Source: an uncultured Candidatus Poseidoniales archaeon (lineage in GTDB: Archaea > Thermoplasmatota > Poseidoniia > Poseidoniales > Thalassarchaeaceae). From it: DNA of 64,000 nt. Location of the stretch: NCBI GenBank assembly GCA_902593945.1, contig CACJKA010000001.1, forward strand, positions 19,316-83,315. Reading direction: 5' to 3'. The position numbers were made by a program, and so were the translations under genes. Below are positions 21,553 to 55,600 of this stretch, one piece after another. The notes under the pieces are model-generated. The model did no database searches. It was not told the origin of the DNA and was given only the letters and a program-made list of their open reading frames with translations. Each line of letters starts with the position of its first letter. Position 1 is the stretch's first letter.

Positions 21553-22581
21553 TCATTCCTCCGATAATTCCTCTATGTTGCGAGGAGGGGGGGGCTGTTG
21601 AGTTTGTCGCCTAAATATCTTGTAAAATATCATTCCAAAAATAGGCCATGAAAAAGGCATAAGAAATATTCCGACAATAATTACTAACAGAAGTCTTAAT
21701 GGAGAAAAAGTATCTTTGGTACAACAATTATCTAATTCTTCCGAAATTTGACAGTCTTTAGAATGTGCTTGTAAATCAACTAAGTAGTAGTTAGACCAAT
21801 TTTTCCCAGTTATCCAAAAAAGAGATTTGTCATTATCATAAGCAATACCGTTCAATTCTCTGGATTCATTATTTTCAAATTGCTGACGAATTTCTGAAAA
21901 GTCATATTCTGAACAAACATACCCAGATGATGGACTTATTGCTATTATTTTATCTTCAAGCCAAACATTTGAGTAAATTAATCCAGAGTCGAATGGGCAT
22001 TCAAGTTCATTTAATCTGTTAATAGGTAAGTTATCGTAATAGATTGTTAAAGTGTCAATACTTGATGAAAGATTGCCTTGATCGATTTGTGATAATTGGA
22101 AAGAACCATCTGAAAGCCAAATATTACCACTTTGAGTAGTACAAATACCCCAACCTTCACCATTGATAGAAAAATTTCCAATATTTTCTAATGTAGAAAT
22201 ATTATAAATAAATCCAATATTCTCCCTCCAAGTCAATTGGATTATACTATTATTAGAAATTGAAATTCCCTCGGCAAAGTATGTTTCTGATAAATTAATT
22301 TTCTGCTCAATTTCTCCTGTAGTGATATTAACAATCCTAAGACTTGATTCACCGTATAAACCTGTACTCTCGTACAATTTTCCGTCTAAAAATGCCAAAC
22401 CCTGAGTAAAAGCTGAAGAATCATGAGGTAGAATTTCTATTACTTCAGGGAAGATTATTTCTACATAATTTGACTCGGAATCCGTTGTTGAATCAGATGA
22501 AACTATGCCTGAAAATGATGAAAAGAGAAACACGAAAAATAATAACAAAACAGATTTGTGACCTCGCCCCTGACCTCTCAT
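21553..22581 (-). CDS. Glutaminyl-peptide cyclotransferase (beta-propeller type), with a signal peptide and a C-terminal membrane anchor
   Basis: Propeller-type QC motifs (HDSSAFTQGL, GLYGESSLR, WRENIGFIY) are followed by a C-terminal TM helix and a proline-rich cytoplasmic tail. I place the start at MRGQGRGHK. This gene is divergent to the large metalloprotease gene. Confidence 0.6.
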   Translation of the reverse strand: MRGQGRGHKSVLLLFFVFLFSSFSGIVSSDSTTDSESNYVEIIFPEVIEILPHDSSAFTQGLAFLDGKLYESTGLYGESSLRIVNITTGEIEQKINLSETYFAEGISISNNSIIQLTWRENIGFIYNISTLENIGNFSINGEGWGICTTQSGNIWLSDGSFQLSQIDQGNLSSSIDTLTIYYDNLPINRLNELECPFDSGLIYSNVWLEDKIIAISPSSGYVCSEYDFSEIRQQFENNESRELNGIAYDNDKSLFWITGKNWSNYYLVDLQAHSKDCQISEELDNCCTKDTFSPLRLLLVIIVGIFLMPFSWPIFGMIFYKIFRRQTQQPPPPRNIEELSEE

Positions 22582-22663
22582 GTACGAACGATGCTCCATC
22601 GATGTTAAAATAGGTCTCAAACGGGCATTAACTAGTAATAAACAGGTTGTGACGCTATTGGTG

Positions 22664-25600
22664 ATGAATTATAAACAAAACAATCTAACTACTCCTTTGT
22701 TTATTGTAGTAGTTATGATAGTTGCAAGTTTATCGCCACTTGCATTAGCAAGTTCCGATATTGATGCCGAAACATCAGAATTCTCATACGGAAGTTTAGA
22801 CGATTTCGATCCTTCGATAGAAGGGAAAAAATATATGTTCACAAATGAAACGAAACCTGCATTTTCGGCCACTGGGCATTTAAAAAAACAATGGATAGAG
22901 GACGGTTATCCGAATTTAGTACTCCCATTTTCTCAGACATATATGAACTCTAAATCATCAGCACGAAACTGTACCGACGCATGGAGTCAAGGAGATACGG
23001 ATACAGTTCCCTCAGCAAATGGGAATGTTGATGCAACCGTACAAAAAATTTCTTCTAATGCTGCAATATTTGTAGAAGACGGCCAAATATTATCTGCAAC
23101 TACTCTAAATGATATTGCTTCAACATTTGAATCCACAATTTTCCCAACCGATACTACTTATTTTGGTTCTATGCCAGATGTAGATAATAATTGTCAACTA
23201 GAAATTATGATACTAGCCATAGATGGAGGAGGCGGAATAGGTGGATACTTCTCACCAGGTATTTCTTCACAAAGAGAAGCTATATTCATTGATGTGGATG
23301 ATATGAGTTGGAGAAATACAATAATAGCACACGAATTTCAACATTTATTACATAATGCCAGAGACCCGTTTGAAAATTTATGGATTGATGAAGGTGCTGC
23401 AGATATGGCGGCTTACCTATGCTTCGGAGTCACTTCTGCTCTGACTGGACACGCCAACGAATGGTCTCAAAATTCTAATATGAGCGTTAGATGGTGGAAT
23501 CAAAGAATAGCAGATTATGGTGCAGGTTTTATGTTTTTAATGTATTTAGCAGATAAATTAGGAGGAGGTAGCGCAATTCAAAGTCTGGTAGCGGATACTG
23601 CAACAGGAGGGGCAGGAATTGAAAATTTAGCGGCAAATCCACAACCTGGTTCGATATCAATTGGGACTACAATGAGTCAAATTTATGCTAATTTCAGTGC
23701 TGCTGTAACTTTAGATAGTGCGCAAGGTGCATTTGGTTTTTCTAACTTAGATCTATCCGAAGCCTGTACAGCCGCTTTCATCTGTAAGGTACAAAAAAGT
23801 GGTTATAATGACCAATGGGTCAATGATTGGACAAGTAATAGTGATTCCGTAGAAGGATGGGGTATGAGATCTTATAAATTCTCACAAGGTTCTGGAGCAC
23901 CTTTGAATCTGATGGTTTCTCCTACTCAGTTTGGTTTTGAAGGAATCATTATGTCTAAAGAATCTGCAACTGGAACTTGGTCAATGGATAGATTAAGAAT
24001 TGATCCATCAACCGGAGCAGGAACCGGTTTGGTTTATGGATTCGGCAATGTTAGTGATGAAGTTTGGCTAATTACTTGGTATGAATCCATTGTTGACGAT
24101 TGTGATTATAATTATGCTAGTTGCGGTATTACAACGGGATCCTACCCTGAAGCGGCTATTACTGTCCAAGCTGGACTAATTACTGATCCTGCAGAAGTTG
24201 AAATTGTAACCATTGAAAATTTCGATAGAGACGGTGACAACCTAGATGATAGCAGTAGAATTGATTTAGAAGTGACATCTAATGCATTCTTTGAGATACT
24301 TGAGGTTGAAGTAAATGCATATCTTAACAATAGCATCCAAGATACTTTAATTTTTGATATGACCGCTGGGAATAGTATCGCTACTGAAAAAAGCATATGG
24401 TTCACACCACCGGAAACTGGGGATTGGACTTACGGAGTTAAAATTACAGATTTTACTGGAGCAATGGTTGACCAAGCATTTGCATTACCAGTTAATATTG
24501 CAAATATGGAGCCGGTTACATCCGGCACCTTAACGACAAATGTGACTCAAACATGGCTCCCTGTAGCAATGTTTGGTTCAGGTTATGATGAATGGGGGTT
24601 CAGTCAAGTAAATGGAAGTTTTAGCCACAATGAGACACCTATTGCATATTACTGGGATTTAGGAGATAATACTTCATCAGGCTTGAAGAACCCTGTACAT
24701 TCATATCTAGATATAGGAATTTATACAATTGTGTTGACAGTTAAAGACAAGGGAGGATATTTCTCAGAACCTCAATCTTGGACGATAACCGTTACAGATA
24801 CATCAGTCCCTACACCAATAATTACGGTAGATGGTATAGTTCAAGATTCGGAACTAACCTTAATGACAAACCAAAGAGTACAGTTTTCAGCATTATCAAG
24901 CCAAGATAATGTGCCAATTGAGGAGATGACGTTTACTTGGAATTGGGGAGATGGACAAATTGAACAAGGCCAAGGATTAGCAGAATTAGGGCACGCATGG
25001 GTTGATGGAAGTGCCGATGGAATAATTTATACTCTAACTCTAACAATAGACGATGGAAATCAATTTGTAGATTATTCAATTTATATTAGAATTTTGAACA
25101 GAGTTCCTGAGCAAATATTTGATGACACGTTACAAACATTTACCCTGACACCAATAGAGATGCCATTGATTTTCGAAGATCAAGATGGTTTTATCGTAGA
25201 ATATCGATGGACATTTGAAGAGGGAGTAAATATTGAAGGTTCAGGGATGACATTGACCTCTGATTTCTCAGTCACTGAATCCTTGGAAAGAAATCCAATC
25301 ATTGGATGGAAAGAACCGGGAATGAAAAACGTCAGCTTAGAAGTTACGGATGATGATGGAAATACTTCAACTACAAATATACAGATACTAGTAGTTAATC
25401 AACGCCCAGTAGCGGTATTTGCTAGACCTAGTGACGGATTCGTCGATACCGAATATATATTTGAAAGCCTATCATTTGATCCTGATGGAAATAGTTCTGC
25501 GCTAGAAATTATATGGAATATCTCCGCATTTGATGAAGAGATATACAATGTTTCAACAGTATACCATACATTTACTTCGCCGGGATTATACAGCATTAGT

Positions 25601-26773
25601 TTGTCTGTAATTGATGAAAGAGGGATGAATTCAGCTACGAAGTCATATACTATTAGAATAGATAATCCATTACCAGTTCCTGAAATAAAATTCAGACAAC
25701 CAAGCATTAATGGTAGTAATTTAGATTTTATACCTACAGATTATTCTCAAATATCATGGCAAATACCTTTCACCGAAAATGGAGGAGGTTTTGTTGCACC
25801 AAATATGCCATTACTATTTGATGGATCAAATAGCTATGATTCTGACCCAATATTTGAAGGTATGACTTCAACAAATCAAGAAGACCCTGAATGGAATGGA
25901 ATTACAAGATGGATATGGGATTTCGGAGATTCATCACCTGTAAAAGAGGGATTCGAAGTATGGCATTATTATCAGATTCCTGGAACCTATGTTGTAAAAT
26001 TGACAGTCGTGGATGGTTTTGAAGCCGGAGAAACTAATACTACATCGATGATGATTTATGTTTCTAGGACTCCTGAGATAGTCACAAATGACCCTACGGG
26101 ACTAGAATATGTAATTGTAGGAGAGATTGTCGATTTAAATGTTGAAGTAATTGATAGAGATGTTGTCGACGGAATTGAAGCATGGTTAGATATTGATATT
26201 AATGAAGATTCAGATGGAGATGGTGATTTTGAGAATGATAAAGATAGGTATCTCTCTAGTGAACCAGAAATAAAATGGGATTTGAACATAGCAATTGATG
26301 GAATAGACAATGATGGAGACACGAGAAATGATTTCGTTTGGGGTGAACAAGTGTGGACATTACCAGAATACCAACCATTGGTAATTCTTCTTGAAACATG
26401 TGATGGAGTAAATGTTTGTTCCAGTAAACAATTTGAAATTACAGTCCTAAGTATTGAAGATGATGATGGACCATTATCTATCTCAGATTTGACTTGGGAA
26501 GATTTTGTTCCGGATGCAGGAAGTGCTGGTCTTCTAGCATTAGTAGCCACAGTACTTTTGTTAGGATGGTTAATAATGAGACAAAAAGATGAAGAAGAAT
26601 TAGATGCAAAGAATAGTACTGAGACATACGATGTACAGGAAGTTGAAGCAGAAGGAGGGTTACCGGGAATGGATCAACACAATCCGCCGCCACAGCCAAA
26701 ATATCTGACAGTTGAAGAACGAAGGAACAAAGAATCAGGATACATACGGCCTATTAGGACTAGAAGGAAATGA
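22664..26773 (+). CDS. Large secreted zinc metallopeptidase (gluzincin-like, HExxH...E) with multiple PKD/Ig-like repeats. It has a C-terminal TM anchor and a cytoplasmic tail.
   Basis: A signal peptide (MNYKQNNLTTPLFIVVVMIVASLSPLALA) precedes the HExxH motif in IAHEFQHLLH and a downstream E in WIDEGAAD. Repeated segments of about 90 aa with WDFGD/WNWGDG-like PKD signatures follow. The C-terminus has a TM helix (LLALVATVLLLGWLIM) and a charged tail. Confidence 0.6.
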   Translation: MNYKQNNLTTPLFIVVVMIVASLSPLALASSDIDAETSEFSYGSLDDFDPSIEGKKYMFTNETKPAFSATGHLKKQWIEDGYPNLVLPFSQTYMNSKSSARNCTDAWSQGDTDTVPSANGNVDATVQKISSNAAIFVEDGQILSATTLNDIASTFESTIFPTDTTYFGSMPDVDNNCQLEIMILAIDGGGGIGGYFSPGISSQREAIFIDVDDMSWRNTIIAHEFQHLLHNARDPFENLWIDEGAADMAAYLCFGVTSALTGHANEWSQNSNMSVRWWNQRIADYGAGFMFLMYLADKLGGGSAIQSLVADTATGGAGIENLAANPQPGSISIGTTMSQIYANFSAAVTLDSAQGAFGFSNLDLSEACTAAFICKVQKSGYNDQWVNDWTSNSDSVEGWGMRSYKFSQGSGAPLNLMVSPTQFGFEGIIMSKESATGTWSMDRLRIDPSTGAGTGLVYGFGNVSDEVWLITWYESIVDDCDYNYASCGITTGSYPEAAITVQAGLITDPAEVEIVTIENFDRDGDNLDDSSRIDLEVTSNAFFEILEVEVNAYLNNSIQDTLIFDMTAGNSIATEKSIWFTPPETGDWTYGVKITDFTGAMVDQAFALPVNIANMEPVTSGTLTTNVTQTWLPVAMFGSGYDEWGFSQVNGSFSHNETPIAYYWDLGDNTSSGLKNPVHSYLDIGIYTIVLTVKDKGGYFSEPQSWTITVTDTSVPTPIITVDGIVQDSELTLMTNQRVQFSALSSQDNVPIEEMTFTWNWGDGQIEQGQGLAELGHAWVDGSADGIIYTLTLTIDDGNQFVDYSIYIRILNRVPEQIFDDTLQTFTLTPIEMPLIFEDQDGFIVEYRWTFEEGVNIEGSGMTLTSDFSVTESLERNPIIGWKEPGMKNVSLEVTDDDGNTSTTNIQILVVNQRPVAVFARPSDGFVDTEYIFESLSFDPDGNSSALEIIWNISAFDEEIYNVSTVYHTFTSPGLYSISLSVIDERGMNSATKSYTIRIDNPLPVPEIKFRQPSINGSNLDFIPTDYSQISWQIPFTENGGGFVAPNMPLLFDGSNSYDSDPIFEGMTSTNQEDPEWNGITRWIWDFGDSSPVKEGFEVWHYYQIPGTYVVKLTVVDGFEAGETNTTSMMIYVSRTPEIVTNDPTGLEYVIVGEIVDLNVEVIDRDVVDGIEAWLDIDINEDSDGDGDFENDKDRYLSSEPEIKWDLNIAIDGIDNDGDTRNDFVWGEQVWTLPEYQPLVILLETCDGVNVCSSKQFEITVLSIEDDDGPLSISDLTWEDFVPDAGSAGLLALVATVLLLGWLIMRQKDEEELDAKNSTETYDVQEVEAEGGLPGMDQHNPPPQPKYLTVEERRNKESGYIRPIRTRRK

Positions 26774-43662: not shown

Positions 43663-43742
43663 GAATATCATTATTTAAAAATTAAAAAAAACTGATAAAG
43701 TTTCAGGATAGGTCTAAGAACGACCGAATAAAGAACGTACTG

Positions 43743-44915
43743 ATGTCAGGATACCTCGACCGCATAGGCGCCGGGAAAGTCTTGGTAAATAGAGAACCTT
43801 TTTCTTTTGATTGGACACCAGATCACCTAGTAGGAAGAGATAGAGAACTTACTGAATTAGCCAGTTTATTCACTCATGTAGAAAACCATAACTCAAGTTG
43901 TAGAGCTGTAATTACTGGACCAGTTGGCTCAGGTAAGACAGTTCTAACAAGACGTTTCGGACATGATTTGTTAAGCCACCTTGAAGGGAAAAGGAAGGTT
44001 GTCTTAGCACATGTAAATTGTAGAAATCATCCCTCTACATCACAAGTATTGCAGCGAATTGCTTTAACCTTGGACTCTGGCCATCCTGAAAGAGGACTTA
44101 GTTCAGGAGAAATAATACAGTCAATTAGAAGGAATCTACTTTCACACAACAGTCATCTTTTATTAGTTCTTGACGAAGTTGATTTGTTAATTAGAAGAGA
44201 TAATTCGGATTTGATATACAAACTCCTCAGAATCGATGAAGGACAAGAAAAACAAGGATCTATATCATTAATCTTAGTTAGTCAAGATTCTATGCTATTG
44301 AAATTATTCGAGCCAGCCATAATATCTAGATTAGGGGCAAGTAACATTCTAAAAATGAGCCCTTATGATAAAAAAGGACTAACGGATATTGCAAGGCAAA
44401 GAGCAGATATAGCCTGCAGAAATGGTTCAATAAGTGAGAAAGTTCTAGAAAAAATAGGATTTATGGCTGCAGAATCCGGAGATGCTAGATTAGCAATTGA
44501 ACTACTTGATTCATCAATAAGAAGAGCTGAATCAGCAGGCAGAGGTGAAGTTCTGATTGAAGATATCGAACAAAGTTCGGAAAGAGTTGCTGCAATAGAG
44601 CCTAGTCAAGTGGATGTGCTATCAAAAGATCAGAAATTGATAATGCTTGGACTTTGTAGAAGATTGAAAAAGGAAGCAGAAATAAATACTGGAGATGCTG
44701 AAAAACTTTACAAAATTGTTTGTGAAGAATATGAAACTAAACCAAGAAGTTATACTACGTTTTGGAAGCATTTGAAATTTCTAGAAAATCAGGGGTTAAT
44801 TGAAACTAGAAGTAGTAAATCAAATGTCGGAAGAGGAAGAACCCAATATATAACAATGAACAAAGTAGCACCCGCAAATTTAGCAAATAGAATTGAGAAA
44901 GAATTACAAAGATGA
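43743..44915 (+). CDS. orc1: Orc1/Cdc6 replication initiator
   Basis: An AAA+ domain carries Walker A (ITGPVGSGKTV), Walker B (LLVLDEVD) and a sensor-2-like motif (GDARLAIELL). A C-terminal winged helix follows (GRGRTQYI). Confidence 0.85.
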   Translation: MSGYLDRIGAGKVLVNREPFSFDWTPDHLVGRDRELTELASLFTHVENHNSSCRAVITGPVGSGKTVLTRRFGHDLLSHLEGKRKVVLAHVNCRNHPSTSQVLQRIALTLDSGHPERGLSSGEIIQSIRRNLLSHNSHLLLVLDEVDLLIRRDNSDLIYKLLRIDEGQEKQGSISLILVSQDSMLLKLFEPAIISRLGASNILKMSPYDKKGLTDIARQRADIACRNGSISEKVLEKIGFMAAESGDARLAIELLDSSIRRAESAGRGEVLIEDIEQSSERVAAIEPSQVDVLSKDQKLIMLGLCRRLKKEAEINTGDAEKLYKIVCEEYETKPRSYTTFWKHLKFLENQGLIETRSSKSNVGRGRTQYITMNKVAPANLANRIEKELQR

Positions 44916-44981
44916 TTATTCAATTTGAAATCGTCTTCCGAACCGCTCTTATAGGGGTCGTATGTCGGCAAGTCGTCTAAG

Positions 44982-46713: not shown

Positions 46714-47082
46714 TTGGACTGCGTCCTAATAGACGCTTGTGGATGGGCAGCGTTAATTGATGCTGAACTAAACATAGATATCTCTATGAGTAAAATTATA
46801 GGGAAACCTAGATACCTATTATTAGAAAAGGTCAAACAAGAATTAGAATCATTATCGAAACAAAGAAAAGGACTTTTATTGAATTTATTAGATAAGAAGT
46901 CGGAATTAATCAAAGCACCTATGGGATTAAGGCATACAGACCAGATGTTACTAGAATTATCTCGAGAAAACGGATGGCCGGTATTAACAGTAGATAGAAG
47001 ATTAAAAGAGAGATTGATTAATACTGGTGGATCGTATATTGAAGTAACTTCAAAAAATGTATTAAGATTGATACAGAATTAA
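46714..47082 (+). CDS. PIN-domain-like protein (from the conserved archaeal S6e-eIF2gamma-PIN neighbourhood)
   Basis: The N-terminus (CVLIDACGW) has an acidic residue in a PIN-like strand. The conserved gene-order context is established knowledge. Confidence 0.4.
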   Translation: MDCVLIDACGWAALIDAELNIDISMSKIIGKPRYLLLEKVKQELESLSKQRKGLLLNLLDKKSELIKAPMGLRHTDQMLLELSRENGWPVLTVDRRLKERLINTGGSYIEVTSKNVLRLIQN

Positions 47083-47375
47083 GGTAAAGTAAACAATCTG
47101 TCATCTCCATGGCCATCGAGTAAACCAATTCTAACAGCAGCATCAATCCATGCATGGGCATAATTAATTGCGCCAAATGCACGTACTAGATCCCCATTAT
47201 TCATGAAGTAAAGTGCATCTTTCTGATAATCATCACACATTCTAAGCATTGCTTTAAGCCTGTTTTCATCTTCTGTATTTTTAGTAATAGAAGTTGCTTT
47301 CATTCTTGCTTCAGCGGTTAAATCGAGATATTTTTGGACTTTTTCCTTAGACACGATGTTTCCATTATCAGACAT
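47079..47375 (-). CDS. Small conserved hypothetical protein
   Basis: This 98 aa ORF has clean boundaries against its neighbours and no recognisable motif. Confidence 0.3.
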   Translation of the reverse strand: MSDNGNIVSKEKVQKYLDLTAEARMKATSITKNTEDENRLKAMLRMCDDYQKDALYFMNNGDLVRAFGAINYAHAWIDAAVRIGLLDGHGDDRLFTLP

Positions 47376-47384
47376 AATTACTCC

Positions 47385-49319
47385 TCAAAATTCATTTGCG
47401 GCCGCCTCGCTTAATTTGAATAAGCGAGTCCTGCCTTGTTTTCTAACTGATAACATGCCTGATTTCTGAAGACTGTTATATAATTGAGAAAGGCGAGGAC
47501 GGCCGACTTCTAATCTAGCCTGTAGTTCATCATCAGAGGGAGAAATTTCTCTAATTGAAGCTACTTCTAGAATCATTCTCTCAGCATCAGAGAGTGAGTA
47601 AAATCTATTCACATCCAATTCCCTATCATCTTCCCAAATTGGAGAAAATCTTGATTTTTTAGTAGGGAAATCATTAATCATAGAGGTGTCTTTCTCTTTT
47701 GGGAAGATTGGAACAGATTCTACTAATTCAACTGTATCCTGAATTTCTGGTTCTTCGAAAATAATTTCTTCAATTTCTGATTCTTGAGACATGGGTTCCT
47801 CTATAAAAGATTCATTATTTGGAAGAGAATCATTTGACGCTGATGGATTTTTTGTCATTTTTGGTACAGTAGACTGGTACGAAGGTTCAACTGACCATTC
47901 GGCTCCTTCGATGCTATCTACTATTTCATAATCAATTGACTGGATATTTTGATCCATTCTCGCTTCGGAAACTATTGGTTCATCGATTTCATTTTTATTT
48001 TTAATTTTGAACGTCTCACGGCCGACATAATTGTCTAAAGTTGATTGTGAAGGTTCTTCATCTGCATAAGTAATTGGAACATGAGGAGAAATGTCATCTT
48101 CCATACCATAAGTGGCTTTTTGTGACCTCTTTCTAAGGGATCCAAATTTCTTACTTATTGTAACGGGAGATGGTTGTGGCATTCTCTCAGGGGGTTCGGT
48201 ACCAGGTGACATGAACAATTCTGTCTCATCAGGGATATTGTCTTCTTCTATTGTATTAGTTTCTTCATCAATTAAGTCATTTTTAATTTCGGAGAAATTA
48301 TCTTGCCATATTGGCTTTTCCTCATCGGTTATTTCATCATCTTCTTCAGAGAAGTTATCAATTAATAAAGGGGTTTCTTCGTCATCAAAATCCCGCAAAT
48401 CTGATGGTTCCTCATCAATCAATTCGTCGTTCTCAAGTTCGTTATCAATAATTTCGGAGACAGGAATATTAGGTTCATAATTATCATTACTAATATTGTT
48501 TTCAGCATAGACTTTTTCATCAATAACAGGCGTCTTTAGCGCTTGGAAAGACATGAGATTTTCCAGCGTTCCTTGATATCCAAGATCTCTCTTTTCATCC
48601 ACTAAACACTTCAGAATTCTTATAGTATCTCTAGGATTACCTCCTGTTCTTTCGTGTATTGAATTAAGAATCATTGGATTAATAATCCACTTCTCCTTAG
48701 ATTTGAGCCTCATCCGGTTATTCACCATTTCTTGTATCTCAATTTTTGTGAAATTATCTAACCTATCTGGTTCATCAAAAAGGTTTCTCATTTCTTCGTT
48801 AAGTTCTAAATACTGAGATTCGGTCAAACTTACAATTACCATTGTTCGAAGTCTAGAGAGAATTGGGCAGATTCTAGATAAGAAAGAATTTATTTCGATT
48901 ATTTGAGGAGGGTAATCTAAAGCTATAATTGGTAAAGGCCCTTTATCTTCATCGAACAAAGAAATTAGTTTCTGAGATAATTGATTCATTGTACTTATTG
49001 ATTGGAATGTTCCGAAATGGGTTAATATTTCATGTAGTACTAACTTTGCTTGATCGCCCTCTTCAGATAAAAACTGACCAATATATTTTTTTGGAGTTTG
49101 GGAAGAAATCGCATTGATCATTGAAGTCCTACCTGAGCCGGATTCGCCAACTAATAGAATCATCCTAGGTGAGCCAGAAAGAATATGTTCTCTCCATCGA
49201 TGGAGTATTTCTTTTCGTCCGACTAAATCATGAGCTCTTGATGATTCAATGGGGCGGTTGTCAAAAGGATTTCCTCGTAAAGCAGGTAAGTCGATCAAAC
49301 TGGCCCCACCACCGTACAT
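47385..49319 (-). CDS. Divergent Orc1/Cdc6-like AAA+ protein with an acidic disordered insert of about 300 aa and a C-terminal winged helix
   Basis: The N-terminal AAA+ domain has a variant P-loop (LLVGESGSGRTS), Walker B (IIALDYP) and a sensor-2-like motif (ERTGGNPRDTIRILK). Residues about 290-560 are extremely D/E-rich low-complexity sequence. The C-terminal wH-like segment is LSQLYNSLQKSGMLSVRKQGRTRLFKL. Confidence 0.55.
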   Translation of the reverse strand: MYGGGASLIDLPALRGNPFDNRPIESSRAHDLVGRKEILHRWREHILSGSPRMILLVGESGSGRTSMINAISSQTPKKYIGQFLSEEGDQAKLVLHEILTHFGTFQSISTMNQLSQKLISLFDEDKGPLPIIALDYPPQIIEINSFLSRICPILSRLRTMVIVSLTESQYLELNEEMRNLFDEPDRLDNFTKIEIQEMVNNRMRLKSKEKWIINPMILNSIHERTGGNPRDTIRILKCLVDEKRDLGYQGTLENLMSFQALKTPVIDEKVYAENNISNDNYEPNIPVSEIIDNELENDELIDEEPSDLRDFDDEETPLLIDNFSEEDDEITDEEKPIWQDNFSEIKNDLIDEETNTIEEDNIPDETELFMSPGTEPPERMPQPSPVTISKKFGSLRKRSQKATYGMEDDISPHVPITYADEEPSQSTLDNYVGRETFKIKNKNEIDEPIVSEARMDQNIQSIDYEIVDSIEGAEWSVEPSYQSTVPKMTKNPSASNDSLPNNESFIEEPMSQESEIEEIIFEEPEIQDTVELVESVPIFPKEKDTSMINDFPTKKSRFSPIWEDDRELDVNRFYSLSDAERMILEVASIREISPSDDELQARLEVGRPRLSQLYNSLQKSGMLSVRKQGRTRLFKLSEAAANEF

Positions 49320-49381
49320 ATGTGCCGGTAAGTATACTAGTTCATAATATTCACGCTTAATTACGCATGAAAAACGTTTTG

Positions 49382-49515
49382 TTAACGCTTTTTATCGACT
49401 ACTGAATTAAAAAACACAATTAAAATGCCAAAAATAGTACTTTAAGCCTATTTTATTAACGCTTTATTAACGCTTATTTAATGCGTTAACGATGCGTTAA
49501 CGACATAATTAACGC
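49382..49515. repeat. Array of TTAACGC/GCGTTAA repeats with 11-bp phased tandem units in an AT-rich intergenic region
   Basis: TTAACGC occurs at 49382-88, 49456-62, 49467-73 and 49509-15. GCGTTAA occurs at 49483-89 and 49494-00. There are 11-bp tandem units TTTATTAACGC x2 (49452-49473) and ATGCGTTAACG x2 (49481-49502). The 8-bp palindrome CGTTAACG is embedded, and degenerate copies lie at 49354-49368. Confidence 0.7.
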
Positions 49516-49667
49516 ATAAATTAGAGATAAAAATACTAAAATCCACATTATAGTAGAGAGAATATCTTAAGAAATCAAATCATAGAAGGTCATCTAATAA
49601 TATCAAGAAACATAAATAATCAGCAGATTCAGGAATTTTAAAGCAAAGACATTACAAACGATATGTC

Positions 49668-50981
49668 TTGGCAAAGAATGGTGAAGACATGCCAGTAGAC
49701 AACAGTCGATTGAAAGGATTTTACAAACTATCAGTACCAGAAAGAAGAGAGCATTTAGCACAACTTGCTGGGTTAACGCCCGAACAAGTAAATGCTTGGG
49801 CCGATGCAGAGTTATCAGAAGATGCTGCAGATAGAATGATTGAGAACGTTGTTGGTAGGTATTCGTTGCCAATTGGAGTGGCTACGAACTTCATAATTGA
49901 TGGAGAACATTACTTGATTCCTTTCGTAGTAGAAGAAGCAAGTGTAGTAGCTGCTGCATCAAACATGGCCAAAAGATGTCAATCGAAAGGAGGATTCACA
50001 TCAGACAATACTGATCCGATTATGATAGGGCAGATACAAATTGTAAATTGTGCTGACCCTGAAGCTTCAAAGAAATCTATCTTATCTTCTAAAGATGAAT
50101 TGATACAGTTGTGCAATGATGTCGACCCCATATTAGTTAAATTTGGAGGAGGGTGTAAAGATGTCGAAGTTAGGATTATCGAAACTATGTCAGGGCCGAT
50201 GGTGATTGTCCACATATTAGTAGACTGTAGAGATGCGATGGGTGCTAATGCTGTCAATACTATGGCAGAAACTATTGCCCCGAAAATAGAGTCATTATCG
50301 GGAGGTACTGTTATTCTCAGAATAATTAGTAATCTTGCAGTCCATAGGCTGGCTAGAGTTAGTGCAACATTTACTCCAGAAGAGATGTCCGACAATGGAG
50401 ATGCAAAACAAGGCTCTGAAGTAATAGATGGAGTGATACAAGCATACCATTTTGCTGCTGCAGATCCTTTCAGAGCGACTACACACAACAAAGGGATCAT
50501 GAATGCTATTTCACCTATAGCAATAGCATGTGGACAAGATTGGAGAGCTATTGAGTCCGGTGCACATTCATACTGCGCTCACGAAAAACAATACACATCA
50601 ATGACTCATTGGGAAAAAGATGAACAAGGAAACCTAGTAGGCAGTATAGAATGCCCGATGGCGGTCGGATTAGTTGGTGGAGCTGTAAGGATACATCCAG
50701 GAGCCCAAACTAATGTTGCACTCTTGGGAATAAAAAGTGCTGACGATTTAGCTAAAGTAATGGCGGCTGCAGGTATGGCGCAAAATCTAGGCGCGTTAAG
50801 AGCATTAGCAACTGTTGGAATACAGGCAGGACATATGAAACTACATTTGAAGAATATGATTAGTTCCGCTGGTGCAAAAGATAATGAAATTGATTTAGTA
50901 GCTAACATGGTGAAAGAAAGTGGTGAAAGAATTACAATGGCAGCTGTAGAAGATGCCCTGAAAACTATCAGAAATGAATAA
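49668..50981 (+). CDS. hmgA: Hydroxymethylglutaryl-CoA reductase (class I, NADPH)
   Basis: The motifs ENVVG, DAMGANAVNTM and GTVGG-like (GLVGGAV) are present, and the length is 437 aa. The ORF track start is a TTG at 49668; an in-frame ATG at 49689 (MPVDNS) is the more probable start. Confidence 0.9.
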   Translation: MAKNGEDMPVDNSRLKGFYKLSVPERREHLAQLAGLTPEQVNAWADAELSEDAADRMIENVVGRYSLPIGVATNFIIDGEHYLIPFVVEEASVVAAASNMAKRCQSKGGFTSDNTDPIMIGQIQIVNCADPEASKKSILSSKDELIQLCNDVDPILVKFGGGCKDVEVRIIETMSGPMVIVHILVDCRDAMGANAVNTMAETIAPKIESLSGGTVILRIISNLAVHRLARVSATFTPEEMSDNGDAKQGSEVIDGVIQAYHFAAADPFRATTHNKGIMNAISPIAIACGQDWRAIESGAHSYCAHEKQYTSMTHWEKDEQGNLVGSIECPMAVGLVGGAVRIHPGAQTNVALLGIKSADDLAKVMAAAGMAQNLGALRALATVGIQAGHMKLHLKNMISSAGAKDNEIDLVANMVKESGERITMAAVEDALKTIRNE

Positions 50982-52603: not shown

Positions 52604-55600
52604 TCACTCTACTTCTACTTCAGATGATTCAGACTCTTCTAAATCCTCGATAACATTCTCATCAGTGATAACTTTCTGAACGATGTTTGCCTCTCCTATA
52701 TCTTCACTCCAGTCTTCGGTCCTTTCTCTTAATGCTTCTAAATTCTTATTCTCAAGAGTCGGAGATAAATCCTCGGATTCTTCCAATTCCTCTTCAATAT
52801 CTACACCGGCTCTTTCGGCAAGTCCCCCAAGAGATTTTGGAGTTCCGAGTGGCTCGGGAACTCTGGGCATTTGGTTTGGATCGGGTAAGACTAATTCTGA
52901 ACGTTCCTCATCCGACTGTTTTCTAGCAGCTTCTTCTTTTTCTATTTCTTCACTCATTTGTAATGCAGCCGCACGATCGAAATCTGTGATTCTACGGCTA
53001 CAACCATCTCCTGCATGAGTAATCCCAATATGGTGATTCGCTAGATTTAAACTAACTTTTCTGAGAGTTACCATAATGAATTGAGCTCTTTGTGAGCGCG
53101 TTAAACAAAGGCTAGCAATTAATTCTGAATTAAACGGATCTAAATTCTGATCTACTTCGTCGAAATAATAGAATGGGCTAGGCTCATAATCTTGGATAGC
53201 AAATATCAATGCTAGAGCGGCCATAGACTTTTCTCCACCTGAAAGAAGATTTCTTCTAGTTTTACTATTCTTCCCAGGGGGAACACAATCCATCTCTAAA
53301 CCACCATCGAAAGGATTCTTCTTATTTTCCAATCTTAAACTGCCAATCCCACCGGGTTGTAATCTCTCGTAGACTCTACTGAAATTTTTATTTACATGAT
53401 CGAATACTAACAACAATCTCTTCTTCCTCTCAGATTCTAGTTTCTCTGCAATTCCAACAAGGTCATCTCGTCGCTGCCGTAGAATTTTTCCATCTTCTAC
53501 AAGTCCTGCTATACGTTCAACTGCGATATCATATTGTTCTATTGCTAACATATTGACATCACCGAGATGACCGAGGCGCCTTTCAAGTCCCTGCACAACT
53601 TTTTGCGCCTCGGCCACAGTGGGTAATTGGATATCTGCTGATGGAAGTTCAATATTCTCAGCTGCTAATTCGGCAACAATCTCATTCACTGCAGCCCTTT
53701 TCTGATTTATCTGTATGTTCAAATCCTCAATTCGTGAATTAAAGGTTTGGCGTTTTTGAGATTGAGTCTCTAAGGATGCCCTTAAACTGGCTCGTTCCTC
53801 TACTATAGTATCTCTTCTTTGACTTAAAATCTGTTGTTCTTCATTAAATTGTGAAGCCTGACTCTTTAAGTCTACTAGTAAATCTCTAGATTTCTGAATT
53901 GAGGTTTCAAGTTTTGTGATTTCTATTTTTGCTTCTTCTATCGATTTTTCTTTGGAATTTATCTGCCTTTCTAGTTCGGATATTCTATCTGAAAGAATCT
54001 TTAATCTAGCATTAGTACTGATTATAGAAGATTCAGAATGTAACTTAATCCTCTCGGCTTCTGTCCTAGTTTTTTCTGCGTTACGAAGAATCTGAGAAAG
54101 ATGGTCGGGAGTGTGATTTTGTAATGCCTCCGCAGCATTTGTTCTGGACTCCAAAGCTTCGAGATATTTTTTATTTACTTCGTCCGCATTAGATTTAGCT
54201 GAGTTGAATAAAGTATCAGAATCTGAAAGCTCTTTTCGCGCTGCTAATACTTTCTTTCCAATATCATCTACATCTTTCTGTGCTCTGGAAAAATCGGATT
54301 TCCATTCTCTTATTTTTACCGATTGATCGCTGTCGTCTAATCCATGAATTTGGTCTCTTAATTCTTGTTGATTAGTTCTCAATTCTCTTAATGCTGCTTC
54401 AACTGTAGAATAAATCAGATTTGCTTCTTCCAATGACCTCTCTAATTTTTCAGTACCTAACTGCCCATGATTCCCTCCACCAAAACTTGGTCTCGATGAA
54501 CCTACAGGAGAGCCTCCGGTCATTGCCCCTGAACCTTCTATGACATCTCCTTTCAGAGTAACCATTCTTGCACCGCCCATATTCTTTCTAGCTATATCCA
54601 TTGATTGAACAATCAAAGTATTCCTTGATGCGTATCTTACTGCAATATCAATCTCAGAATCATATTCTAACAAGTCATGAGCAAAACCCAAAACTCCTGA
54701 ATTCTGAGAAACAATTAGAGTTCTACCCTGAGGTCTTGAAACGCTTAATTTGTTCAAAGGAAGGAAGGTGGCACGGCCTCCGCCATTGAGTCTTAGCCAT
54801 TTTATACATTCTGCCGCAACCTCATCATTAGTTACAACTATACTCCTAAGGCCATTTCCTAATGCTATGGCTAATGCATCTTCATGAATTGATTCTTTAG
54901 GTGAACATAACTCACCCAAGGTCCCAAGAATTCCTTTGATTTCGCCACTTTGTCTCAACTTGGAAAGGGCGGCGATTGTTATTGCAGATCCCGGCCGGTT
55001 TGCTTTTGCTTCTTGGCGCGCTCTGGCCTTGGCCAATGCGACTTCGGCATCTCTAGCCTTAATCTCACACCTATCTCTGTCTTCTCTTAACTCAATTTCT
55101 TGCTTAGTTAATCTTTGCAACTCATTAGCTAAATGTGTTCGATCAATGGTCTCGCCACCATTCTGGATATCTTCGCCCAATAACTCTAAATCATCTCTAG
55201 TAAGAGTTGCCTGTTCATATTCTTCTTCTAGATCTGCTAATTTCTCAGAAGAAATCTGAGCGTTTTGTTCTGCCCTATCTGATTCTAACTTAGCATCAGA
55301 ATAATCTTGATGAGTTTTTGTCACTAATTCTGTGGCTTGACCCAATGCACGATTCAAATCACGGCCAAGTCGATCACCCGATTGTATCGCTTCTCTGGCT
55401 TGAGTCTCATCGATTGCTGCTTTTTCTAAATCTTCTTCGGATTTAGATAAATTTATTTCGGCACTCTCGAGTTCTTGAAGCGCACTATCGTGAGCATCTT
55501 TAACTCCAAGATGATCTTCCCTTATTATCTCAATATCTTGAGTGGTTGATTCGATAATTTTAGATTGGTCGCCGATTCTATCAGTGTTGGTTTCGACATC

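What the first reader, a model, noticed from the sequence alone, without database searches (positions are those of the whole stretch)
47385..49319. Highly divergent Orc1/Cdc6-like protein with a Walker-A K-to-R change and an acidic insert of about 300 aa
This protein has an Orc1/Cdc6-like AAA+ module (sensor-2-like ERTGGNPRDTIRILK) and a C-terminal winged helix (RKQGRTRLFKL), but its P-loop reads GESGSGRTS rather than GxxxxGK[ST]. An arginine in place of the catalytic lysine usually marks impaired ATP hydrolysis, or a switch-like, ATP-binding-only protein. Between the two domains are about 270 residues of extreme D/E-rich, low-complexity sequence. This is unlike canonical Orc1/Cdc6 and unlike the bona fide orc1 at 43743-44915 in the same window. 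The gene is divergently adjacent to the repeat array. It could be a novel origin-associated regulator, an inactivated initiator paralog, or a DNA-mimic/chaperone-like acidic protein tethered to DNA by the wH.
Basis: partly seen in the sequence, partly recalled or inferred. Interest (0 to 1): 0.7.

Follow-up and report, generated by a model that had tools for sequence, protein, structure and literature searches.

The report
Degenerate Orc-like DNA-binding protein of MGII archaea
Marine Group II archaea all carry an undescribed protein, a replication-initiator-like ATPase module with its catalytic residues lost, a long acidic disordered tether and a DNA-binding winged helix, encoded next to a deeply conserved array of GCGTTAA boxes that it probably binds.

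Summary
The ORF at 47385-49319 (-) encodes 644 aa: an AAA+ module with lid (1-262), a 293-aa acidic disordered linker (net charge -57) and a C-terminal winged helix.

The P-loop reads GESGSGRTS. All 118 close homologs have Arg there. Across the wider family 44 of 51 representatives have Arg and 7 have Lys. None has a Walker-B Glu.

The gene always sits in the block SMC-ScpAB | HMG-CoA reductase <-> this gene-DUF357 | ... Orc1. It is always preceded by 5-8 GCGTTAA boxes at fixed positions, about 650-fold enriched over the flanking DNA.

My best reading is a nucleotide-gated, non-hydrolysing oligomer that binds these boxes, represses its own promoter and probably regulates the divergent gene. 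An origin-associated role or an SMC-related role remains possible.

Novelty: new variant of a known kind. Interest 0.55.

The parts
47385..49319 (-). Whole CDS, 644 aa: AAA+ with lid, acidic IDR, then wHTH
   Evidence: ORF. More than 400 full-length homologs. Motif coordinates checked.
48534..49319 (-). N-terminal AAA+ ATPase-like domain plus lid (residues 1-262), with two helices between beta2 and beta3 (ISM-like)
49215..49280 (-). Invariant N-terminal motif LRGNPFDNRPIE...DLVGR (residues 14-35). The PF...LVGR pattern is shared with the window's Orc1; the NPF motif also occurs in ExeA-like proteins.
   Evidence: Invariant columns P12-R28 and V33 in A2. Compare the window's Orc1 'REPFSFDWTPDHLVGR' and P0236/P0239/P0261.
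49122..49148 (-). Walker A GESGSGRTS, with Arg64 in place of Lys
   Evidence: Arg in 118 of 118 close homologs. Among 51 representatives at 50% identity, 44 have Arg and 7 have Lys.
48909..48929 (-). Walker B IIALDYP: Asp135 is invariant but is followed by Tyr, so there is no catalytic Glu
   Evidence: The residue after the Asp is never D or E in the family members where the motif could be located (45 of 51 representatives, 215 of 221 held members).
48609..48647 (-). Lid motif TGGNPRDTIRILK. Arg230 aligns with the Orc1 sensor-2 Arg; the GxPR signature occurs in the ExeA-like and short AAA-wH hits.
   Evidence: hhalign alignment. R230 is invariant in MGIIb but not in the wider family. The same motif occurs in P0220, P0236 and P0239.
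47655..48533 (-). Acidic intrinsically disordered linker (residues 263-555)
   Evidence: 27% D+E, net charge -57. pLDDT below 50. The linker is net negative in all 51 family representatives, with length 137-659 aa.
48387..48416 (-). Conserved island DEEPSDLRDF (family consensus DEEPxDLWD; acidic-aromatic motif)
   Evidence: D302, E304, P305 and D307 are invariant or nearly invariant. Island detection.
48126..48224 (-). Conserved islands TELFMSPGTEPP and FGSLRKR (family-wide motif Phi-G-G-L-x-x-R after a Pro-rich stretch)
   Evidence: L395 and R398 are invariant even with the distant clade included. The motif is present in 38 of 51 representatives. AF2 predicts a short helix at 396-400.
47862..47909 (-). 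Conserved island EGAEWSVEPSYQSTVP
   Evidence: W475, V477 and P486 are invariant. AF2 predicts a small hairpin and helix at low confidence.
47388..47654 (-). C-terminal ArsR/SmtB-like winged helix-turn-helix (residues 556-644). Recognition helix PRLSQLYNSLQKS (607-619); wing RKQGRTRLFKL.
   Evidence: NCBIfam BigR/ArsR E 1e-4. Profile against PDB: BigR 6e-5, HlyU 2e-4. AF2 pLDDT 83-90 with H-H-H-beta-beta topology. Nearly invariant across the family.
49382..49515 (.). Array of six exact GCGTTAA/TTAACGC boxes (49382+, 49456+, 49467+, 49483-, 49494-, 49509+; strand is that of TTAACGC), with pairs 11 bp apart. This is the presumed binding-site array.
   Evidence: The window holds 10 matches against 3.1 expected, and 6 of them lie here. 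Density is 9.6/kb upstream against 0.015/kb in the rest of 76 loci. Positions relative to the ATG are fixed at -200, -185, -174, -158, -147 and -70. The array is conserved in the K-type clade and in the clade tentatively assigned to MGIIa.
49343..49366 (-). Proximal degenerate boxes GCGTAAT and GCGTGAA abutting an AATATTAT TATA-like element about 27 nt upstream of the ATG. This is the presumed autoregulatory operator and the promoter of a leaderless mRNA.
   Evidence: Conserved block GCGT(A/G)A..GCGTGAACATTATGAAC in alignment A3. Coordinates.
47079..47375 (-). DUF357 gene, 9 nt downstream and co-directional; the conserved operon partner
   Evidence: PF04010, E 4e-18. Same position in all loci inspected.
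49689..50981 (+). HMG-CoA reductase, the divergently transcribed neighbour. The likely start is the ATG at 49689, not the TTG at 49668.
   Evidence: It is the divergent neighbour in 67 of 67 loci, with a spacer of 255-405 bp.

Best explanation
This is the founding member of an undescribed protein family, found here only in Poseidoniales (Marine Group II) and unclassified Thermoplasmatota/Euryarchaeota MAGs.

It derives from the Orc/Cdc6-ExeA branch of AAA+ ATPases and has lost catalysis: Walker A has K/R (mostly R), Walker B has Asp but no Glu, and there is no conserved arginine finger. It has kept an intact P-loop.

Proposed mechanism:
1. The nearly invariant ArsR-like winged helix reads the 7-bp GCGTTAA boxes upstream of its own gene. 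This step is inferred.
2. The degenerate AAA+ module binds nucleotide but hardly hydrolyses it, much as the RecA K72R mutant does. It acts as a switch that lets protomers oligomerise along boxes phased 11 bp apart. This step is inferred.
3. Occupation of the weaker proximal boxes, which abut the TATA-like element, represses its own, probably leaderless, promoter. The upstream cluster probably also controls the divergent HMG-CoA reductase gene.
4. The acidic disordered linker, about 290 aa, carries conserved short motifs that recruit partner proteins to this single locus.

Functionally it works like Orc1-2 of Sulfolobales, an initiator-type AAA+-wH protein used as a site-specific regulator rather than as a helicase loader.

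Shown: the architecture, the fold, the loss of catalytic residues, purifying selection, and the synteny and co-conservation of gene and boxes. Inferred: who binds the boxes, nucleotide binding, oligomerisation and the regulatory output.
For: Architecture and fold.

Degenerate but constrained ATP site: the Walker A position is always basic (44 R and 7 K among 51 representatives), the P-loop glycines and the T/S are invariant, Asp135 is invariant, and no family member has a Walker-B Glu.

wHTH: it resembles ArsR-type repressors and is the best-conserved part of the protein, with mean column identity 0.75 against 0.39 for the linker.

Boxes: they are 9.6/kb upstream against 0.015/kb elsewhere in 76 loci. 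They lie at fixed distances from the ATG, with extended consensus aAtaA(A/T)GCGTTAAT. They are kept upstream of the orthologs in two further clades; the K-type-clade proteins are only 22-24% identical overall to the window protein.

Operator: conserved weaker variants GCGTAAT and GCGTGAA abut a TATA-like element about 27 nt before the ATG. This is the classic layout of an autorepressor.

Target: HMG-CoA reductase is the divergent neighbour in 67 of 67 loci. From established knowledge (Korbel et al. 2004), conserved divergent gene pairs usually pair a regulator with its target.

Precedent: Orc1-2 is an Orc1-type protein acting as a transcription regulator (PMC9738581, found).

Against an origin: there is no polarity switch in GC3 skew at the locus. 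GC-rich relatives have no strongly AT-rich unwinding element.
Against: - No binding data exist. Orc1, 4.4 kb away and equally syntenic, or another protein could be what reads the boxes.
- The distance from the box cluster to the HMG-CoA reductase start varies from 55 to 205 bp, so there is no fixed operator geometry for that gene.
- The box array was seen at only one place within +-7-10 kb of 76 loci and in the 64-kb window. A regulator with a single target locus, a 290-aa linker rich in short motifs and an oligomerising module looks over-built for simple autoregulation.
- The ArsR matches lie below the curated cut-offs (about 20 bits against 55).
- Nucleotide binding by an Arg P-loop is assumed from mutant studies in other ATPases.
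Confidence: 0.45

Rival explanations
1. Origin-associated factor. On this reading the box array is the MGII replication origin or part of it: iteron-like or ORB-like sites next to an initiator-type gene. The protein would be a non-hydrolysing Orc-like accessory or regulator that marks or remodels the origin for Orc1/MCM, and it would autoregulate through the promoter-proximal boxes as DnaA and plasmid Rep proteins do.
For: - The fold is of the initiator clade.
- The gene lies next to phased repeated boxes in both orientations.
- This is the largest intergenic region in the 64-kb window.
- It lies 4.4 kb from orc1 in a conserved block.
- The intergenic flanks of orc1 are only 67-80 bp and hold no repeats.
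- No canonical ORB (TTCCAsTGGAAA) occurs anywhere in the window, whereas related Methanomassiliicoccales have ORBs flanking orc1 (PMC4153887).
Against: - GC3 and AT3 skew keep the same sign on both sides of the locus (weak, because only two + strand genes lie on the right).
- Genes converge on the locus rather than diverge from it.
- In relatives with 48-60% GC, the region is only 62-65% AT and has no marked unwinding element.
- The boxes are anchored to the start codon and promoter of the gene.
- The ISM loop lacks basic residues, there is no Arg finger, and the winged helix is ArsR-like rather than Cdc6-like.
Confidence: 0.2
2. Chromosome-organisation factor. On this reading the protein bound to its box array is a ParB/parS-like landmark that recruits SMC-ScpAB, or a partition machinery, through short motifs in its acidic linker.
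For: - The smc-scpA-scpB operon is one gene away in every clade examined.
- Poseidoniales SMC carries an unusual conserved acidic C-terminal tail of about 120 aa, with the motifs PEPLxxPxSLGGLA(E/D)RAG and ERTEDW(S/T)EDIEE. These resemble the linker motifs GTEPP...FGGLRxR and DEEPxDLWD.
- The pattern [FLIM][GSA][GS]L..R occurs only in these two proteins among the 46 proteins of the window.
- The array looks like a single locus.
Against: - The motif similarity is short and was noticed post hoc.
- Acidic-aromatic stretches are common in this lineage, for example in ScpA.
- No ParA-like gene lies nearby.
- Synteny with smc cannot be separated from the general conservation of the whole block.
Confidence: 0.13
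3. The boxes belong to another protein, such as Orc1 or an unrelated regulator of HMG-CoA reductase. This protein would act elsewhere, for example as an acidic DNA mimic or as a chaperone for basic chromatin proteins, tethered by a winged helix of low specificity.
For: - The linker has net charge -57.
- MGII lacks histones and HTa (PMC4153887), so unusual chromatin factors are plausible.
- Nothing directly assigns the boxes to this winged helix.
Against: - The gene and the boxes stay together across every clade examined, down to 22-24% overall protein identity. The box positions are fixed relative to this gene's start, not to the HMG-CoA reductase start.
- The recognition helix and the wing are nearly invariant, as expected for a fixed specific target.
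- The linker contains specific conserved islands rather than pure charge.
Confidence: 0.12
4. A decaying, non-functional initiator paralog.
For: Catalytic residues have been lost.
Against: - The gene is full-length and intact in more than 400 homologs and 102 GTDB species genomes.
- The P-loop, the N-terminal motif and the winged helix are invariant or nearly invariant across the MGIIb homologs aligned, and the core motifs persist across the wider family.
Confidence: 0.02

Closest known systems
Archaeal Orc1/Cdc6 initiators (TIGR02928; Cdc6_lid PF22703 and Cdc6_C PF09079), e.g. S. solfataricus Orc1-1/Orc1-3 (2qby) and A. pernix ORC2 (1w5s)
   Same: Same order of AAA+ base, lid and winged helix. 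Same PF...LVGR N-terminal motif. Two helices lie between beta2 and beta3 (ISM-like). A sensor-2-like Arg is present in MGIIb. These proteins are the best solved structural matches. The gene is encoded next to repeated DNA boxes.
   Different: No match to any Orc1/Cdc6 HMM. Walker A has Arg, there is no Walker-B Glu and no conserved Arg finger. The ISM loop has no basic residues. A 293-aa acidic IDR separates the lid from the winged helix. The winged helix is ArsR-like by sequence. The boxes (GCGTTAA) are unrelated to the ORB consensus. Profile comparison places it nearer to ExeA-like proteins.
Orc1-2 of Sulfolobales (non-initiator Orc1 paralog; global DNA-damage-response transcription regulator; PMC9738581, PMC12490963)
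   Same: An initiator-type AAA+-wH protein used as a sequence-specific regulator binding a short promoter motif. This is the working analogy for the best explanation.
   Different: Orc1-2 is a bona fide Orc1/Cdc6 family member with the canonical domain order, as described in the abstracts returned. It has no long IDR and regulates a large regulon. The present protein seems to have a single site array.
ExeA-like / AAA_22 (PF13401, COG3267) ATPases and short archaeal 'NPF'-AAA-wH proteins (P0236, P0239, P0243; ATPase_2 PF01637)
   Same: These are the closest sequence relatives by profile-profile comparison (E 7e-19 and 3e-16). They share the N-terminal NPF motif and the lid signature GG-x-PR. 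The short archaeal forms also end in a winged helix. JGI names P0236 'ExeA'.
   Different: These relatives keep the Walker A Lys, and most keep an acidic residue after the Walker-B Asp (DE or DD). The short archaeal forms lack the IDR (340-400 aa). Their function in archaea is unknown. The present family scores below the AAA_16 and AAA_22 gathering thresholds.
ArsR/SmtB winged-helix repressors (BigR 3pqj, HlyU 4k2e)
   Same: The sequence-level match covers the HTH, recognition helix and wing (E 6e-5 to 2e-4). The sites lie in the protein's own promoter, which suggests autoregulation.
   Different: The score is below the curated family cut-offs. ArsR proteins are about 100-aa dimers that sense metals or redox state. 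Here the domain is the C-terminal module of a 644-aa protein, and the sites form a multi-box array rather than a single 12-2-12 operator.
Initiator-iteron systems (DnaA with DnaA boxes; plasmid RepA/RepE/pi iterons with an operator in the rep promoter) - from my own knowledge
   Same: A cluster of phased high-affinity repeats plus weaker or inverted sites overlapping the promoter of the gene for the binding protein, with nucleotide-state-dependent oligomerisation in DnaA.
   Different: There is no evidence that the locus is an origin, and the protein lacks the catalytic residues of DnaA or Orc.

Membership tests
Orc1/Cdc6 (archaeal initiator) | Initiator-clade AAA+ fold with an extra helix (ISM) between beta2 and beta3, plus a lid | tested here: met
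Orc1/Cdc6 (archaeal initiator) | Scores above the family HMM thresholds (TIGR02928, NF001623-6, Cdc6_lid, Cdc6_C) | tested here: not met
   No hit to TIGR02928, NF0016xx or PF09079. Cdc6-ORC lid E 0.1 (13 bits against 27). The neighbouring true Orc1 scores 229 bits.
Orc1/Cdc6 (archaeal initiator) | Walker A GxxGxGK[ST] and Walker B hhhhDE | tested here: not met
   The motifs read GESGSGRTS and IIALDYP. Arg is present in 44 of 51 representatives. The residue after the Asp is never D or E.
Orc1/Cdc6 (archaeal initiator) | Conserved arginine finger (box VII, the SRL motif) and sensor-2 Arg | tested here: not met
   The column aligned to the Arg of Orc1 'SRL' is Leu, and the nearby R177 varies (R/K/I/L/V). 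A sensor-2-like R230 is invariant only within MGIIb and is lost in the wider family.
Orc1/Cdc6 (archaeal initiator) | Cdc6-type WHD directly after the lid | tested here: not met
   A 293-aa IDR intervenes. The C-terminal profile matches ArsR/SmtB (6e-5), while the Cdc6 WHD scores only E 0.94.
Orc1/Cdc6 (archaeal initiator) | Binds ORB elements at an origin and recruits MCM | not testable with these tools
   No canonical ORB in the window. Origin status of the locus is not supported by skew or AT content, but those tests are weak.
ExeA-like / AAA_22-AAA_16 P-loop ATPases | Match to PF13401 or PF13191 above the gathering score | tested here: inconclusive
   AAA_16 E 4e-6 with 27.7 bits, below the 32.6 cut-off. 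AAA_22 scores 19.7 bits against 27. AAA_16 is matched at E below 0.01 by 31 of 32 diverse members, and AAA_22 by 14 of 32. hhalign to ExeA-like proteins gives E 3e-16 and to short AAA-wH relatives 7e-19.
ExeA-like / AAA_22-AAA_16 P-loop ATPases | Catalytically competent Walker A Lys and Walker B acidic pair | tested here: not met
   Same evidence as for Orc1.
ArsR/SmtB wHTH transcription factors | Winged helix-turn-helix with an ArsR-type recognition helix and wing | tested here: met
   AF2 gives H-H-H-beta-beta topology with pLDDT 83-90. Profile against PDB: BigR 6e-5 and HlyU 2e-4.
ArsR/SmtB wHTH transcription factors | Score above the curated family cut-off; small homodimeric sensor protein with an inducer site | tested here: not met
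   NF033788 scores 20 bits against a cut-off of 55. The domain is the C-terminal module of a 644-aa multidomain protein, and no sensing site was examined.

The most novel reading that the evidence does not exclude
The protein and its GCGTTAA array may form a previously unknown landmark system on the chromosomes of the histone-less Marine Group II archaea. An Orc/ExeA-derived pseudo-ATPase would oligomerise on one unique site next to orc1 and smc. Through short motifs in its acidic tether (Phi-GGLxxR, acidic-Trp, and a PIP-like QSTLDNYV) it would recruit SMC-ScpAB and/or replication proteins. In function this would be an archaeal counterpart of ParB/parS or DnaA/oriC, built from different parts.
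Probability: 0.17. Interest if true: 0.85.

Novelty: new variant of a known kind. Interest (0 to 1): 0.55.

Why it matters
Poseidoniales are among the most abundant archaea in the surface ocean, they are uncultured, and nothing is known about how their chromosomes are replicated, organised or regulated.

This gene is present in at least 102 GTDB species genomes and sits in an invariant block between orc1 and smc. It comes with a cis-element conserved more strictly than most proteins. Sources annotate it only as 'hypothetical' or 'ArsR regulator'.

It offers a concrete protein-DNA pair that can be tested by recombinant work alone. It is also a natural example of an AAA+ P-loop that toggles between Lys and Arg while lacking the catalytic Glu, that is, a presumptive binding-only switch. 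If the array proves to be an origin or an SMC-loading site, it would be the first such element defined for this lineage.

Tried and rejected
1. Canonical ORB search. TTCCAsTGGAAA and TCCAnTGGAAA gave fewer matches than chance and none near orc1.
2. Structured-RNA reading of the inverted boxes. Rfam gives nothing at E up to 1, and the boxes are sequence-invariant with no covariation. Rejected.
3. Strand-resolved GC3/AT3 skew in the window. No polarity switch at 49.5 kb, but only two + strand genes lie to the right, so the test is weak.
4. AT-richness profile in 37 relatives with 48-60% GC. Only 62-65% AT, and no DUE-like island.
5. Metagenome-wide scan for the box doublet TTAACGC-N4-TTAACGC. 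Most arrays found belong to unrelated elements ending in 'AGAGCTGTCGAA', which look like transposon ends. Only 3 of 120 loci were this gene. So the uniqueness of the array in MGII genomes remains untested.
6. Sequence search of the N-domain profile against PDB. It found only P-loop-local matches such as midasin, Rpt3 and RFC. Fold search was needed.
7. Profile search with full-length distant members. Only 34 hits, all from the one clade containing the first query sequence, passed E <= 1e-10 (the acidic linkers may have crowded the candidate list). The N-domain-only repeat returned mostly fragmented gene calls.
8. DUF357 partner and the extra ~345-aa ORF in other clades. No informative family or PDB match. 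The literature search for DUF357 returned only unrelated DUF357x families.
10. Literature. No paper on Poseidoniales origins or on this protein.
Full report
**1. Observation**

The ORF at 47385-49319 on the minus strand exists and encodes 644 aa. A bona fide Orc1 lies at 43743-44915 (TIGR02928, E 9e-68).

The region between the two folded domains (residues 263-555) has 27% D+E, net charge -57 and pI 4.05. Its most acidic 100-aa window (40% D+E) is the highest among the 46 proteins of the window, where the background is 14.4%. AlphaFold2 with a 36-sequence alignment predicts residues 262-556 as disordered (pLDDT below 50). It predicts the flanking domains with confidence.

The insert is not featureless. 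It holds conserved islands at about 298-311, 364-380, 389-402, 414-421 and 469-486.

The Walker B motif reads IIALDYP, so the catalytic Glu is replaced by Tyr.

**2. Family and distribution**

More than 400 homologs were found, all environmental. They are full-length down to 36% identity, and sources call them 'hypothetical' or 'ArsR family regulator'.

A scan of one genome per GTDB species found 102 loci. Nearly all are labelled Poseidoniales, Thalassarchaeaceae or MGII, or generically Euryarchaeota, Methanobacteriota or Thermoplasmatota; one bin is labelled Acidimicrobiaceae (L036), probably a mis-binned contig.

A profile search of 1.84 billion representatives found 87 representatives at E below 1e-10. 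This is a wider family of 500-1000-aa proteins with the same plan: NPF motif, AAA+ module, acidic IDR, then a winged helix with 'SPSD...RLSQI.N.L...GIL'. One of the more distant clades includes a protein that NCBI labels Candidatus Poseidoniaceae (MGIIa). Others are labelled only Thermoplasmatota.

No Pfam or NCBIfam family is matched above threshold. AAA_16 is the commonest weak hit, in 31 of 32 diverse members.

**3. The ATPase-like domain**

The N-domain model has pLDDT 85 and pTM 0.81. Its best solved matches are Cdc6, ORC1 and archaeal Orc1/Cdc6:
- Foldseek E 2e-8 to 1e-7.

The model has two helices between beta2 and beta3, the position of the initiator-specific motif. hhalign against an Orc1 alignment gives 97.9% probability and E 6.6e-13 over 209 columns, pairing Walker A, Walker B and GGNPR with GDAR.

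The same profile aligns better to two other groups:
- Short archaeal AAA-wH proteins with an N-terminal NPF motif (P0236, P0239, P0243): E 7e-19 over 239 columns.
- ExeA-like AAA_22 proteins: E 3e-16.

These relatives share the NPF motif and the lid signature GG-x-PR, and they keep Lys; most keep an acidic residue after the Walker-B Asp. JGI names P0236 'ExeA'. To my knowledge the PDB holds no ExeA AAA+ domain; if so, the fold result and the profile result do not conflict.

My conclusion is that this is a separate family in the Orc/Cdc6-ExeA branch. It is Orc1/Cdc6-like in fold and domain order, but it is not an Orc1 paralog.

**4. The K-to-R change**

All 118 close homologs have Arg. Among 51 representatives at 50% identity, 44 have Arg and 7 have Lys. 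In a neighbour-joining tree, Lys sits in the basal clades (P0179/P0181 and P0175/P0191) and also in three representatives inside the MGIIb clade.

The position is therefore always basic and toggles between K and R. The P-loop glycines and the T/S, and the Walker-B Asp, are invariant. The residue after that Asp is never acidic (Y, F, H, V, A, L and others). No arginine-finger column is conserved.

This pattern fits a site kept for binding nucleotide or phosphate, not for turnover. From my own knowledge, RecA K72R binds ATP and forms filaments but hydrolyses very slowly.

**5. The winged helix**

The C-terminal approximately 90 residues are the best-conserved part of the protein (mean column identity 0.75). 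They fold as H-H-H-beta-beta. A profile of this region matches ArsR/SmtB repressors (BigR 6e-5, HlyU 2e-4) and the Cdc6 WHD only at E 0.94.

**6. Context and the cis-element**

The 369-bp spacer to the divergent HMG-CoA reductase gene is the largest intergenic region in the window. It contains six exact TTAACGC/GCGTTAA boxes within 134 bp. The whole window has 10 against 3.1 expected. Two pairs are spaced 11 bp apart.

Across 76 related loci:
- The boxes occur at 9.6/kb in the 450 bp upstream of the gene and at 0.015/kb elsewhere.
- Their positions relative to the start codon are nearly fixed: -200>, -185<, -174<, -158>, -147>, -70>.
- The extended consensus is aAtaA(A/T)GCGTTAAT.

Two conserved weaker variants, GCGTAAT and GCGTGAA, abut a TATA-like AATATTAT about 27 nt before the ATG. 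This suggests a leaderless mRNA and an operator that overlaps the promoter.

The same layout (two inverted boxes plus two or three direct boxes 11 bp apart, and in the K-type loci also proximal sites) precedes the orthologs in the Lys-type clade (L086, L087). It also precedes those in the clade I tentatively assign to MGIIa (L208, L209). The K-type-clade proteins are only 22-24% identical overall to the window protein.

Synteny is the same everywhere: SMC-ScpA-ScpB | HMG-CoA reductase <-> this gene-(extra ORF in some clades)-DUF357 | PIN-aIF2gamma-S6e-Orc1-Dph2. HMG-CoA reductase is the divergent neighbour in 67 of 67 loci, with spacer lengths in discrete classes from 255 to 405 bp.

**7. Is it an origin?**

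For:
- The fold is of the initiator type.
- The boxes are phased and occur in both orientations.
- orc1 is nearby.
- Canonical ORBs are absent near orc1, although related Methanomassiliicoccales have them (PMC4153887).

Against:
- Third-position GC and AT skews, resolved by strand, have the same sign on both sides of the locus (weak).
- Genes converge on the locus.
- GC-rich relatives show only 62-65% AT and no pronounced unwinding element.
- The array is anchored to the gene's own promoter.

I put the origin reading at about 0.2.

**8. Best explanation and rivals**

The most economical reading has four steps:
1. The invariant winged helix binds the invariant boxes.
2. The degenerate AAA+ module provides nucleotide-gated oligomerisation on the phased sites.
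3. The proximal weak boxes give autorepression, and the shared spacer gives control of the divergent HMG-CoA reductase.
4. The acidic IDR recruits partners.

The closest working analogue is Orc1-2 of Sulfolobales, an Orc1-type protein that acts as a transcription regulator (PMC9738581).

The rivals are an origin-associated accessory factor, a ParB-like landmark for SMC, and the possibility that another protein reads the boxes. Decay is excluded by the conservation pattern.

The SMC idea rests on a post hoc observation. Poseidoniales SMC carries a conserved acidic C-terminal tail with the motifs PEPLxxPxSLGGLA(E/D)RAG and ERTEDW(S/T)EDIEE, which resemble the linker motifs. The pattern [FLIM][GSA][GS]L..R occurs in only these two of the 46 proteins in the window.

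**9. Novelty and score**

No paper or curated family describes this protein. It is a new variant of the AAA+-winged-helix DNA-binding theme: pseudo-ATPase, long motif-bearing IDR, ArsR-like winged helix and a dedicated conserved site array. It is conserved across an ecologically dominant archaeal lineage. The function remains inferred, so I score interest at 0.55.

Noticed in passing
window 49343-49515 (intergenic 49320-49688); also L001 7800-7990, L003 7820-8000, L005 7800-7980, L086 9820-9935, L087 9815-9935, L208 9835-9895, L209 9868-9925: An array of GCGTTAA/TTAACGC boxes lies at fixed positions upstream of the gene. It is conserved in every clade examined, including orthologs only 22-24% identical overall, and is about 650-fold enriched over the flanking DNA. 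Weaker conserved variants abut the TATA-like element.
   Followed up: yes
window 52604-52966 (- strand; SMC residues ~1210-1329); motifs at 52805-52834 and 52691-52729: SMC of Poseidoniales has an unusual conserved acidic C-terminal tail of about 120 aa, with the motifs PEPLxxPxSLGGLA(E/D)RAG and ERTEDW(S/T)EDIEE. The first motif resembles the linker motif GTEPP...FGGLRxR. The pattern [FLIM][GSA][GS]L..R occurs in only these two of the 46 proteins in the window.
   Followed up: partly
window 48024-48047 (- strand; residues 425-432): A PIP-box-like motif QSTLDNYV, conserved as Q[SP]TLDx[YF][VIT], occurs only in the window's sub-clade of MGIIb. It could be a PCNA-binding peptide inside the disordered linker.
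   Followed up: no
window 43663-43742 and 44916-44981; whole window: The bona fide orc1 has intergenic flanks of only 67-80 bp with no repeats. No canonical archaeal ORB (TTCCAsTGGAAA) occurs anywhere in the 64 kb, unlike the orc1 regions of related Methanomassiliicoccales.
   Followed up: partly
L086 11830-12861, L087 11821-12852, L208 11761-12810, L209 11869-12918: In the Lys-type clade and in the clade tentatively assigned to MGIIa, an extra ORF of 343-349 aa sits between this gene and DUF357. It has no Pfam or PDB match and is absent from the window's clade at this position.
   Followed up: partly
L119 3800-3870 and 4200-4260, L120 2444-2515, L186 2061-2120, L139 737-805, L159 1910-1960, L167 644-715: Unrelated metagenome contigs carry dense TTAACGC/GCGTTAA arrays next to a shared 'AGAGCTGTCGAA'-type end sequence. 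They look like terminal or subterminal repeats of a transposon family and have no link to the MGII gene.
   Followed up: no
window 49668-49691: The mechanical ORF for HMG-CoA reductase starts at the TTG at 49668. Homologs start at MPVDN, so the real start is probably the ATG at 49689, preceded by a GGTGA Shine-Dalgarno-like sequence.
   Followed up: partly
window 9129-13928 and 22580-26773 (+ strand): Two very large proteins (1599 and 1397 aa) are acidic (pI 4.1-4.2) and poor in K and R, with acidic stretches of 27-30% D+E. Their nature was not examined.
   Followed up: no
L208 10001-11764, L209 10001-11869: In two contigs of the clade tentatively assigned to MGIIa, the ortholog is called as two ORFs (291+244 aa and 174+434 aa). 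These are probably frameshifts or assembly errors, but a real split was not excluded.
   Followed up: no
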